This document shows, piece by piece, positions 3,410-6,629 of a DNA stretch of 64,000 nt. The notes beneath the pieces were generated by a model, which was given only the letters and a program-made list of their open reading frames with translations, ran no database searches and was not told the DNA's origin. The DNA is from the human T2T-CHM13v2.0 reference genome, Homo sapiens: the NCBI RefSeq assembly GCF_009914755.1, contig NC_060938.1. One strand, 5' to 3'. A program made the translations under genes and the position numbers. The first letter of the stretch is position 1. Each line of letters starts with the position of its first letter.

Positions 3410-5540
3410 AAATGACAGTGAAAATTAAGAGTTCTTGAGGTTTTCAAATAGTCATTATTCTGGTATGGTAATTTACTTTACATTAAAAAGTCTTTCAGCC
3501 AAAATAATCATTTGCAAAAAACTAATGAGATATATAATGACTTTATAAATTAAAATTATACGGTAGTACTCAATTCTTATATTTTCCACAGCAATTATGG
3601 TGACACTATTTAATGGCACAGCATAATATTATACATTTATTTATGACAATATTTCTGTGTGGAAATGGAAACTGATATTTTTTAAAATCCCATTTAAGAG
3701 AATTTAAAATTTCAAAAAATATAATTTATAATCTGAAATATTTTGTTACTAAATTATGCATAAATCACTGCAAGGTAAACTCAGCGCAAGTATTTATAAA
3801 ATGATAACGAATTATTTTTTAAATTAAAAATATTTTAGTGCTAAGAATAATAGTTACAATTTTGGTATCCCAGACATAGTTTTAATGAGTTAGGAGAATA
3901 CAATTTTATATTTCAAATGTGTATATATATTAAATTATATACATTTTAAACCAATAGTTTATCATAAGTAAAAGAATACTAAACATACTGAAAAGTATTG
4001 TTAGCATTATTTTTTCATTAAGTTTTGATAAGTAGTATATGTATCTTGTACAAGACATAATACAACAGCAAAATTGAATTTAAGCATTGGAAAAATAAAA
4101 AGCAAAAATACTTTATAAAGAGAAGCCATATGAGCAAAATGATAGTTTTAAACATAATTTTTTGGCTCTAGAGTAAGTATACTAAAGTATTGCCTAGCAA
4201 TAGCAATAACTGAAGATGCGATGAGAATTGGAAATATCAAATTTGTCCTTTTATAATTAGTAGTTTTTAAAATTATATATGGAATAATTTACCCAAACTC
4301 TACAGAAATACAGGCAAAATAACTTGATATCTCAAATAACATCTGCCTAATATTTCTCTTTTTCCCTTATCAAAGGACTGGTCACTTGATAAGGTGAAAA
4401 TTGAAGTGTAGACAATTTCCCTGTTCTATTTCCTAGAATAACTACTAATATTATTTGAGGTTCAAAAAAAAAAGTGTAATACAGCTTACTAAATGTTAGG
4501 TGATATTTTAGGAAATTAAAAGAAATAGCTTGGTCTCTATTTTCTAAAACGTGCCATACAATTAAAAAACCGATAGAATATTCCTTATAGCATTTGTTGT
4601 AATTAGACCCCTGTAGCTGAAAGTCATAAATATGATTAATGCACTGTTGATACCTGAGATATTACTCAATATGATCATATTTTATATGTACTAATGATTA
4701 TATAAAATAATAGCAAAGACTAATAAATTCCTAAGTGTAAGAACTCAAAATTATATGAGCTGTTTTAGTTAGTTTATATTAATAAGGTAAATAGGAATAG
4801 AAACAAAGCATCAATAAAAATCAATTTACTTAAATTAGGTATAGGATGTTGATTAAATATACAGTTAATAATAATTTTTTAACAACTTATATGAAACAAA
4901 AAACATTAACTGTTCTATACTTTTTTGAAATAAATTACAAGGCATCTGGAAAGGGCATAATCTCACTAAAAGTGAACGACTGAATATTGAATTCAAACAC
5001 CATGCCAATGTTCTTTGAAAACAAACATCAAACACTTAGAAAGCATATATTACTTATCATTTATGGTTATAAAAAGCATAACTGGTGCCACTTTTCCATT
5101 TCCATCTCTTAAATCACACTACCTCTTAATTAATGATTCTGCTCTCATGATTTAGCATATTCATTCATTTTATGATTTATTCCTTCATGGAGATGTGCTG
5201 AGAAAAAATTCTAAAAGCAAAATTAATTCAAAATAACCATTTAGAAAAAATGTTGTATTACATATATTGTATCCATGTTTGTGATTTTAAGATTTTCTTT
5301 TTTTTTTTTTTTTCTTTTTCTTTTTTTTTTTTTTTATTATACTCTAAGTTTTAGGGTACATGTGCACATTGTGCAGGTTAGTTACATATGTATACATGTG
5401 CCATGCTGGTGCGCTGCACCCACTAATGTGTCATCTAGCATTAGGTATATCTCCCAATGCTATCCCTCCCCCCTCCCCCGACCCCACCACAGTCCCCAGA
5501 GTGTGATATTCCCCTTCCTGTGTCCATGTGATCTCATTGT

Positions 5541-6458
5541 TCAATTCCCACCTATGAGTGAGAATATGCGGTGTTTGGTTTTTTGTTCTTGCGATAGTTT
5601 ACTGAGAATGATGGTTTCCAATTTCATCCATGTCCCTACAAAGGATATGAACTCATCATTTTTTATGGCTGCATAGTATTCCATGGTGTATATGTGCCAC
5701 ATTTTCTTAATCCAGTCTATCATTGTTGGACATTTGGGTTGGTTCCAAGTCTCTGCTATTGTGAATAGTGCCGCAATAAACATACGTGTGCATGTGTCTT
5801 TATAGCAGCATGATTTATACTCATTTGGGTATATACCCAGTAATGGGATGGCTGGGTCAAATGGTATTTCTAGTTCTAGATCCCTGAGGAATCGCCACAC
5901 TGACTTCCACAATGGTTGAACTAGTTTACAGTCCCACCAACAGTGTAAAAGTGTTCCTATTTCTCCACATCCTCTCCAGCACCTGTTGTTTCCTGACTTT
6001 TTAATGATTGCCATTCTAACTGGTGTGAGATGATATCTCATAGTGGTTTTGATTTGCATTTCTCTGATGGCCAGTGATGATGAGCATTTCTTCATGTGTT
6101 TTTTGGCTGCATAAATGTCTTCTTTTGAGAAGTGTCTGTTCATGTCCTTCGCCCACTTTTTGATGGGGTTGTTTGTTTTTTTCTTGTAAATTTGTTTGAG
6201 TTCATTGTAGATTCTGGATATTAGCCCTTTGTCAGATGAGTAGGTTGCGAAAATTTTCTCCCATGTTGTAGGTTGCCTGTTCACTCTGATGGTAGTTTCT
6301 TTTGCTGTGCAGAAGCTCTTTAGTTTAATTAGATCCCATTTTCCAGGTGCGTCCGTCACCCCTTTCTTTGACTCGGAAAGGGAACTCCCTGACCCCTTGC
6401 GCTTCCCAGGTGAGGCAATGCCTCGCCCTGCTTCGGCTCGCGCACGGTGCGCACACAC
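5541..6458 (-). pseudogene. Chimeric ORF: ~39 codons of L1 5'UTR (GTG start) in frame with the C-terminal ~266 aa of ORF2p, including the CCHC motif
   Basis: ORF track 305 aa; [11 protein letters not shown]...[18 protein letters not shown]...RIFSLIGGN; first in-frame ATG at 6143. Confidence 0.8.
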
Positions 6459-6605
6459 ACTGGCCTGCGCCCACTGTCTGGCACTCCCTAGTGAGATGAA
6501 CCCGGTACCTCAGATGGAAATGCAGAAATCACCCGTCTTCTGCGTCGCTCACGCTGGGAGCTGTAGACCGGAGCTGTTCCTATTCGGCCATCTTGGCTCC
6601 TCCCC
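6338..6605 (-). promoter_or_regulatory. L1HS internal sense-promoter core with the YY1 site (6587-6595) and the +98 splice donor (6508)
   Basis: CAAGATGGC YY1 motif; CTGAG|GTACCG; about 18 CpGs in ~265 bp in an otherwise CpG-depleted window. Confidence 0.85.
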
Positions 6606-6629
6606 AGATACATAGTCAAGATTTTCTTT

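What the first reader, a model, noticed from the sequence alone, without database searches (positions are those of the whole stretch)
5289..6629. Young 1.3-kb L1HS-Ta1 'mini-element': intact promoter end fused to the ORF2 tail via a 4-nt microhomology
Seen: both L1 termini, a poly(A) tail and a 12-bp TSD are present, but ~4.7 kb (rest of the 5'UTR, all of ORF1, EN, RT) is missing. The junction reads 5'UTR ..CACCTGGA[AAAT]GGGATCT.. ORF2, with AAAT (6338-6341) shared by both parents. The flanking parental sequences are also similar (AAATCGGGTC vs AAATGGGATC). Established: short L1s are normally 5'-truncated and lose the promoter, and known spliced insertions (SpIREs) use the +98 GT donor. This one keeps the promoter end and the junction is not GT-AG. 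Inference: it formed by an RT template jump during TPRT, by post-insertion MMEJ deletion, or was copied from an already-deleted parent. In the last case it would be a promoter-bearing, non-autonomous L1 derivative mobilised in trans.
Basis: partly seen in the sequence, partly recalled or inferred. Interest (0 to 1): 0.8.

Follow-up and report, generated by a model that had tools for sequence, protein, structure and literature searches.

The report
Internally deleted L1 with traced source
This is a single dead-on-arrival copy of the human L1 jumping gene that lost its 4.7-kb middle, and a short tag at its front end shows it was copied from a full-length L1 on chromosome 1; it is a tidy example of a known kind of event, not a new mobile lineage.

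Summary
On the minus strand of 5289-6629 lies one L1HS-Ta insertion. It has a 12-bp TSD, a 35-nt poly(A), L1 positions 1-268 joined to 5013-end through AAAT, and 4,748 bp missing.

Eleven of them are the sequence directly upstream of a full-length 6,034-bp L1 at C1:104885737-104891770, inside that element's own TSD. The twelfth is an untemplated G. This is a short 5' transduction that names the source. The 3' part shares a rare variant with that source, carried by 91 of 13,097 genomic copies.

The junction occurs once in the assembly, so the "mobilised mini-element lineage" reading is not supported in this genome.

The deletion is not GT-AG. It has 4-nt microhomology (2.4% of random breakpoint pairs) and an 8/10 flank match.

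- Favoured cause (about 55%): ORF2p reverse transcriptase switching template within the source RNA during insertion.
- Main rival (about 28%): a later microhomology-mediated deletion of a full-length insertion.

Population data would decide between them. This is a new member of a known kind, of modest interest.

The parts
6618..6629 (-). 5' copy of the target-site duplication (sense AAAGAAAATCTT). It extends to 6632 as a 15-nt repeat with one mismatch.
   Evidence: (family D5)
6617..6617 (-). Untemplated G. It is found neither in the target site nor in the source flank, which has T there. It is most simply a reverse-transcribed cap or a non-templated addition.
   Evidence: PMC4859970 and PMC11702581 passages
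6606..6616 (-). 11-nt 5' transduction, ACTATGTATCT. It is identical to the bases directly upstream of the full-length L1 at C1:104885737-104891770, which are part of that element's own TSD.
   Evidence: chance estimate
6342..6605 (-). L1 5'UTR positions 1-264. It is identical to many young L1 copies and differs from the source at 3 sites.
6338..6341 (-). AAAT microhomology at the deletion junction (source positions 265-268 and 5013-5016)
5541..6337 (-). Rest of the C-terminal ORF2 remnant. The frame starts at the AAAT and stays open for 266 codons to the natural stop.
5336..5540 (-). L1 3'UTR, containing the ACA trinucleotide
5301..5335 (-). Poly(A) tail of 35 nt: A15 G A5 G A13
5289..5300 (-). 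3' copy of the target-site duplication

Best explanation
This is one L1HS-Ta retrotransposition event into chr14.

The template RNA came from the full-length L1 at C1:104885737-104891770. Transcription started 11 nt upstream of that element, inside its 5' TSD copy, at an A that follows a T. The RNA was capped and polyadenylated at the L1's own signal.

Target-primed reverse transcription started at a T-rich nick and copied the 3'UTR and the last 801 nt of ORF2. At source position 5013 the nascent cDNA end (the complement of AAATGGGATC) left the template. It re-annealed at the similar AAATCGGGTC at position 265 of the same RNA, or of a sister transcript from the same locus, so 4,748 nt were skipped. 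Synthesis then ran to the very 5' end, through the 11 transduced bases and one extra G, and the cDNA was joined to the other target end.

The product has no ORF1, EN or RT and only 268 nt of the 5'UTR. It is a dead-on-arrival copy, not a founder of a lineage.

Shown: the anatomy, the source locus, the uniqueness of the junction, and the non-splice microhomology junction.
Inferred: that the deletion arose during reverse transcription and not afterwards.
For: Insertion hallmarks:
- TSD, poly(A), and both L1 ends in one orientation.

Source:
- The 30-mer made of the 12 extra nt plus the L1 start, searched with up to 3 mismatches, has exactly 2 places in the genome: this one and C1:104891753-104891782, which has 1 mismatch at the first base.
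- The reversed-pattern control gave 0 places.
- At C1 the 11 nt belong to a 16-nt TSD present on both sides of a 6,034-bp L1. That sets the direction as C1 to chr14.
- The chance of an 11-nt flank match is about 0.0005 for 956 exact 5' ends and about 0.0025 for 5,000.
- For the 3' 1,006 nt, the C1 element is the best non-self match among the 40 copies scored, out of 2,733 candidates (1810 vs 1806 bits).
- The C1 element shares G at 3'-segment position 589. That variant is carried by 2 of 29 panel copies and by 91 of 13,097 genomic copies of the 30-mer.
- The 11 other G-variant loci examined are old copies, 85-95% identical to the source.

No lineage:
- The junction is unique in the assembly.

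Junction:
- No GT-AG boundary exists in any register of the AAAT (read).
- 4-nt microhomology occurs in 2.4% of random breakpoint pairs.
- The acceptor is one of only 2 of 64 candidate AAAT sites with an 8/10 or better match.

5' junction:
- It has the features reported for completed cDNAs: an extra G, little microhomology and a TSD of 12-18 bp (PMC11702581 passages).

Precedent for the mechanism:
- ORF2p shows template jumping and non-templated addition in vitro (PMC10830420 passages).
- Same-orientation template-switch junctions with microhomology are seen in de novo insertions (PMC11702581 passages).

Cis-preference (established knowledge; PMC5860796 passages) favours a coding-competent RNA as the template.
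Against: - Nothing in the sequence fixes when the deletion happened. A later genomic deletion would leave the same junction.
- The CHM13 allele of the source differs from the mini-element at 4 of about 1,281 aligned bases. Three of them are in the 264-nt 5'UTR part, where at least 25 other L1 copies match the mini-element perfectly. So apart from the 11-nt tag, the 5'UTR body itself does not single out C1.
- The CHM13 source allele has one premature stop in ORF1 and one in ORF2. If these predate the event, the RNA needed proteins in trans and the cis-preference argument falls.
- Three of 28 other young copies carry the same base at the ORF1 stop position, so that stop could be old.
- The test for long-range RNA pairing that would bring the two jump sites together gave no signal (35th and 32nd percentiles).
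- Only one haploid genome was searched.
Confidence: 0.55

Rival explanations
1. A full-length copy of about 6 kb from the same C1 source inserted normally. It later lost 4,748 bp through a genomic deletion that used the AAAT microhomology, by MMEJ or replication slippage.
For: - The 4-nt microhomology and imperfect flanking homology are equally typical of MMEJ.
- Microhomology-associated internal deletions of non-LTR elements have been read this way elsewhere (PMC2861651 passages).
- The complete 5' end with a cap G is just what a normal full-length insertion has.
- The element may be old enough for this: 4 differences from the source in about 1.28 kb, and two Gs in the tail.
Against: - My own rough prior, from no call: a multi-kb deletion lying wholly inside one given 6-kb element within a few million years is of the order of 0.1%. 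That is no higher than the likely rate of rearranged insertions.
- No 6-kb allele is known to me.
- Neither point is decisive.
Confidence: 0.28
2. The template was already deleted before reverse transcription and was mobilised in trans by another L1's proteins. This could be a deleted allele at the C1 locus, or an RNA-level event such as ligation of RNA fragments or non-canonical splicing.
For: - The CHM13 source allele has stops in both ORFs, so trans-mobilisation may have been needed anyway.
- RNA ligation before retrotransposition is documented for U6/L1 chimeras. I saw this only as the PMC6789731 listing and as a citation in the passages.
Against: - The C1 allele in this genome is full length.
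- No GT-AG or AT-AC boundary exists in any register.
- Blunt ligation predicts no microhomology, and 4 nt or more arises by chance in only 2.4% of pairs.
- Trans-mobilisation of L1 RNAs that lack coding capacity is inefficient (PMC5860796 passages).
Confidence: 0.1
3. The element is one copy of a mobilised family of promoter-bearing mini-L1s.
For: It keeps the first 268 nt of the 5'UTR, the 3' end and a poly(A). So in principle it could be transcribed and recognised by ORF2p.
Against: - The junction is unique in the assembly.
- The 5' tag leads directly to a full-length parent and not to another mini-element.
- No other copy carries the tag.
- Loss of 5'UTR sequence beyond about 100 nt strongly lowers promoter activity.
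Confidence: 0.03
4. Assembly artefact: a 6-kb L1 collapsed in the assembly.
For: None was found.
Against: - The junction is clean, sits at a microhomology, and keeps the ORF2 frame open with no stray bases.
- The flanks, TSD and tail are coherent.
- Recalled, not tested: a 6-kb repeat is well within the read lengths used for this assembly.
Confidence: 0.02

Closest known systems
Template-switch (same-orientation, microhomology) junctions in ORF2p-mediated insertions; ORF2p template jumping in vitro
   Same: - The two pieces lie in one orientation inside one TSD/poly(A) frame, with short microhomology at the joint.
- The enzyme has the required activity (PMC11702581 and PMC10830420 passages).
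   Different: - Published examples seen here join two different RNAs, or occur within twin-primed events.
- Here both pieces come from one locus's RNA, the jump spans 4.7 kb, and synthesis then reaches the capped 5' end.
SpIREs (spliced integrated retrotransposed elements)
   Same: - They are L1 copies with complete 5' and 3' ends, TPRT hallmarks and an internal deletion.
- They are dead on arrival (PMC5860796).
- One was seen here for contrast: L078, where positions 1-97 are joined to 620.
   Different: - SpIREs use the G98U99 donor and AG acceptors within the 5'UTR or ORF1.
- This element keeps positions 1-268 including that donor, has no GT-AG boundary, joins to ORF2 at 5013, and shows microhomology.
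L1 5' transduction
   Same: Sequence directly upstream of the source element is carried to the new site, which identifies the parent (PMC4859970 passages).
   Different: - It is only 11 nt and lies within the source's own TSD, which suggests slightly upstream initiation by the L1 promoter and not an external promoter.
- 5' transductions of L1 are described as extremely rare (PMC4862182 passages). Tags this short would escape the methods used there.
Internally deleted 'full-length' polymorphic L1Hs
   Same: [quoted passage not shown]
   Different: That paper's text does not give junctions, sizes or mechanism. The supplement search found only code comments, and file 1 was not searchable.
Microhomology-associated internal deletions in other non-LTR elements (Hebe, GilD)
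   Same: The copies are not 5'-truncated and carry internal deletions bounded by short microhomologies (PMC2861651 passages).
   Different: Those deletions are 12-200 bp, with 5-14 bp microhomologies, and are attributed to DNA repair after insertion.

Membership tests
L1 insertion made by target-primed reverse transcription | Poly(A) tail at the 3' end followed directly by a target-site duplication that also flanks the 5' end | tested here: met
   35-nt A-rich tail at 5335-5301. Exact 12-nt repeat at 5289-5300 and 6618-6629.
L1 insertion made by target-primed reverse transcription | First-strand nick at a TTTT/AA-like site | tested here: inconclusive
   With the 12-nt TSD the nick reads CTTT/CT. 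With the 15-nt, one-mismatch TSD it reads TCTT/AA, a listed variant (table rows in PMC4859970).
L1HS-Ta subfamily | ACA trinucleotide in the 3'UTR (diagnostic recalled, not confirmed in a paper here) | tested here: met
   GATGACACATTAGTGGG is read. The element is 99.8-100% identical to young L1 copies.
   The element reads GACGGGTGATTT, so the G is present and it is not Ta-1d if my recall is right. The ORF2 diagnostics were not checked, because no paper giving the positions was found.
SpIRE | Deletion bounded by the G98U99 donor and an AG acceptor | tested here: not met
   The 5'UTR is retained to position 268. No GT...AG boundary exists in any of the five registers allowed by AAAT.
L1 5' transduction | Extra 5' sequence identical to the flank directly upstream of a source L1 elsewhere | tested here: met
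   The 11 transduced bases (of the 12 extra) are contiguous with the L1 start at C1:104891771-104891781. This is the only other place in the genome. They lie within the source's TSD.
5'-truncated or 5'-inverted (twin-primed) L1 | Missing 5' end, or a 5' segment in the opposite orientation | tested here: not met
   The 5' end is complete and both segments have the same orientation. For contrast, 3 truncated and 5 inverted copies were seen among 28 young copies.
Reverse-transcriptase template-switch deletion | Same orientation, non-splice junction, short homology between the donor and acceptor sites | tested here: met
   AAAT plus an 8/10 flank match. The acceptor is among the best 2 of 64 sites.
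Reverse-transcriptase template-switch deletion | The deletion was present at the moment of insertion | not testable with these tools
   This needs population or archaic alleles, or de novo insertion data.
Mobilised non-autonomous L1 derivative (a lineage) | The same internal junction at two or more loci with different TSDs | tested here: not met
   1 place for the 31-mer with up to 2 mismatches and 1 place for the 22-mer with up to 1 mismatch, in the 3.12-Gb assembly.

The most novel reading that the evidence does not exclude
The 268-nt promoter stub is still transcribed, and the 1.3-kb RNA (5' end, ORF2 tail, 3'UTR, poly(A)) is picked up in trans by ORF2p. In that case, copies with the same junction but different TSDs would exist in human genomes other than CHM13, as a nascent SINE-like L1 derivative. 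A milder version with much higher odds: this locus is a natural record of a 4.7-kb intramolecular ORF2p template jump for which the donor, the acceptor and the template locus are all known.
Probability: 0.03. Interest if true: 0.7.

Novelty: new member of a known kind. Interest (0 to 1): 0.3.

Why it matters
It matters modestly. Internally deleted L1 copies with both ends are known but are seldom resolved to their mechanism.

Here an 11-nt 5' tag plus a cap-type G identify the parent locus. That gives three things:
- The exact donor and acceptor sequences of the 4,748-bp skip are known.
- It shows that L1 transcripts starting a few bases upstream of the element do get inserted.
- It shows that very short 5' transductions, invisible to methods that need 50 bp or more of unique sequence, can be used to trace parents.

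It also removes the more exciting reading of a new mobilised mini-L1 family, at least for this genome.

Tried and rejected
- **Long-range RNA pairing.** I tested pairing between the inner ends of the deleted segment, which could bring the jump sites together. The duplex energy was -23.9 kcal/mol, at the 35th and 32nd percentile of 276 and 240 control windows. No signal.
- **Splicing.** No GT-AG or AT-AC boundary exists in any register.
- **Survey of 63 other L1 5' ends on C1** to measure how common such structures are. Only 3 loci came through. The survey was dropped and replaced by a look at loci already held:
  - 28 of 28 5' panel copies are colinear over positions 1-1764.
  - Of 28 3' panel copies, 20 are colinear, 3 truncated, 5 inverted, and 0 have a same-orientation deletion.
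  - One of the 3 fetched loci is a SpIRE-type copy.
  - These panels were chosen by similarity to the mini-element, so they are small and biased.
- **Papers not held.** Lavie et al. 2004 (upstream L1 initiation) and Gilbert et al. 2005 (fates of L1 intermediates) could not be read. What I say about them is recalled.
- **Subfamily diagnostics.** No held paper gave the Ta-1/Ta-0 positions.
- **PMC2831318 (short mRNA pseudogenes)** turned out to concern 5' truncation, not internal deletion.
- **Supplements of PMC8647825** gave no list of internally deleted elements (file 1 not searchable).
- **Two paper searches** failed on term format and were reworded.
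Full report
**Anatomy**

The feature lies on the minus strand. Read in sense, it consists of:

| Part | Window coordinates |
|---|---|
| TSD copy AAAGAAAATCTT | 6629-6618 |
| Twelve extra bases GACTATGTATCT | 6617-6606 |
| L1 5'UTR, from GGGGAGGAGCC | 6605 down to 6342 |
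| AAAT shared by both parents | 6341-6338 |
| Last 801 nt of ORF2, frame open for 266 codons to the natural stop | 6341-5541 (starts at the AAAT) |
| 3'UTR | to 5336 |
| 35-nt A-rich tail with two Gs | 5335-5301 |
| Second TSD copy | 5300-5289 |

The repeat finder gives the TSD as 15 nt with one mismatch (family D5). That longer reading would put the first-strand nick at TCTT/AA. The exact 12-nt reading gives CTTT/CT. The twelve extra bases were not mentioned.

**Is there a lineage?**

- The 31-nt junction, with up to 2 mismatches, occurs once in the 3.12-Gb assembly. The 22-nt core, with up to 1 mismatch, also occurs once.
- The window's genome is a single haploid assembly, so this excludes sister copies here and not in other people.

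**The source**

- I searched for the twelve extra bases plus the first 18 nt of L1, allowing up to 3 mismatches. This found two places: this locus and C1:104891753-104891782, which has one mismatch at the first base. The reversed-pattern control found 0.
- The C1 site is the 5' junction of a 6,034-bp L1 at C1:104885737-104891770 on the minus strand.
- That L1 is flanked on both sides by AGAATACTATGTATCT, its own TSD.
- The eleven bases ACTATGTATCT of the mini-element are the last eleven of that TSD. They are contiguous with the L1 start exactly as at C1.
- Because the bases are native target DNA at C1, present on both sides of the C1 element, the direction of copying is C1 to chr14.
- The base before them is T at C1 and G in the mini-element. 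The chr14 TSD ends in T. So the G is untemplated.
- Untemplated Gs at the 5' ends of full-length insertions are taken as reverse-transcribed cap (PMC4859970 passages; PMC11702581 passages). ORF2p also adds non-templated bases (PMC10830420 passages).
- The exact 26-nt L1 5' end occurs 956 times in the genome. The composition-aware chance that one of them has this 11-mer next to it is about 0.0005, or about 0.0025 if 5,000 ends are allowed.

**Does the L1 body agree with this source?**

- Alignment to the C1 element gives 1023/1025 for the 3' part and 279/283 for the 5' part.
- For the 1,006-nt 3' part, C1 is the best non-self hit among the 40 copies scored out of 2,733 candidates.
- The mini-element and the C1 element share G at position 589 of that part. 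Twenty-seven of 29 panel copies have A there.
- Genome-wide, 91 of 13,097 copies of the surrounding 30-mer have G.
- Eleven other G-bearing loci that I examined are old copies, 85-95% identical to the source. Among young copies I saw G only in the mini-element, the C1 element and a full-length copy at C10:6369809-6375826.
- Against a simple picture, in the 264-nt 5'UTR part the CHM13 C1 allele differs from the mini-element at three sites. At least 25 other copies are identical to the mini-element there.
  - At two of the three sites the C1 base is unique among 29 copies. At the third it is rare, 2 of 29.
  - Two of the three are at CpG sites.
  - This part has 18 CpGs in 268 nt, against 9 in 1,002 nt for the 3' part.
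- Over positions 1-1764 the C1 element has 10 positions unique to it. That is within the range of 1-21 seen for 28 other young copies.
- I read the differences as changes in the C1 lineage after the event, or as changes specific to this haplotype. This is inference.

**The deletion**

- Mapped on the C1 element, positions 1-268 are joined to position 5013 onward. AAAT sits at 265-268 and at 5013-5016. The loss is 4,748 bp.
- It removes the rest of the 5'UTR, all of ORF1, and the EN and RT domains.
- None of the five possible registers gives GT...AG or AT...AC. The known G98U99 donor is retained unused. So this is not a SpIRE (PMC5860796 passages).
- Microhomology of 4 nt or more arises at 2.4% of 167,401 random breakpoint pairs in this L1. 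This argues against blunt joining or RNA ligation.
- The ten bases from the AAAT onward are AAATCGGGTC at the acceptor and AAATGGGATC at the donor, an 8/10 match. Only 2 of 64 AAAT sites upstream of the donor match that well, and one of them is the site that was used.
- This is the side on which a nascent cDNA end would have to re-anneal.
- A test for RNA pairing that might juxtapose the sites was negative.

**Mechanism**

I favour an ORF2p template switch during target-primed reverse transcription, for these reasons:
- The two pieces are in the same orientation within one TSD/poly(A) frame.
- Both pieces trace to the same locus.
- The joint has homology on the copied side.
- The cDNA then reached the capped 5' end, with the extra G, the lack of junctional microhomology and the 12-15-nt TSD reported for completed cDNAs.
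- The enzyme has the activity, and de novo insertions show such joints.
- A full-length RNA satisfies cis-preference.

None of this dates the deletion. A later microhomology-mediated deletion of a normal full-length insertion gives the same sequence and is the main rival. A pre-deleted template is less likely, because the C1 element is full length here and the joint is neither spliced nor blunt.

The CHM13 C1 allele has one premature stop in each ORF. I cannot tell whether these are older than the event.

**Age**

- There are four differences from the source in about 1.28 kb, mostly at CpGs. The mini-element has none that is unique among the panels.
- This allows anything from very recent to a few million years. 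I could not test whether the insertion is polymorphic.

**How ordinary is it?**

[quoted passage not shown] No details were visible to me.
- L1 5' transductions are called extremely rare (PMC4862182; PMC4859970), but tags this short would be missed by those methods.
- In my small, biased panels I saw 0 same-orientation internal deletions: 0 of 28 5' ends over 1.76 kb and 0 of 28 3' ends over 2.5 kb. One SpIRE-type copy turned up among 3 fetched loci.
- A proper survey was not possible.

**Verdict**

This is a real, single, dead-on-arrival L1HS-Ta insertion with a 4.7-kb microhomology-bounded internal deletion. Its parent is identified by an 11-nt 5' transduction. It is a new member of known kinds. 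The lineage reading is not supported. Interest is modest.

Noticed in passing
L078 (G000:C1:205589520-205597550): This L1 has positions 1-97 joined directly to about 620-6033. That is the known SpIRE97/622 structure. It turned up by chance among three fetched 5' ends.
   Followed up: partly
L005 (G000:C1:104884301-104893300), source L1 position 1233: The premature ORF1 stop of the source begins at a position where 3 of 28 other young L1 copies carry the same base. This could be recurrent CpG decay or a small lineage sharing the stop.
   Followed up: no
L015 / L041 (G000:C10:6369809-6375826): This full-length L1 is identical to the mini-element over 5'UTR positions 1-264. It is also the only other young copy seen with the rare G variant. 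It is probably close kin of the source lineage.
   Followed up: no
L038, L044, L046, L055, L059: Five of 28 young L1 3' ends show a 5' inversion of the twin-priming type. Three more (L040, L043, L048) are plain 5' truncations.
   Followed up: partly
window 5301-5335: The poly(A) tail is interrupted by two Gs (A15 G A5 G A13). This hints that the insertion is not very recent, or that the tail was copied with errors.
   Followed up: no
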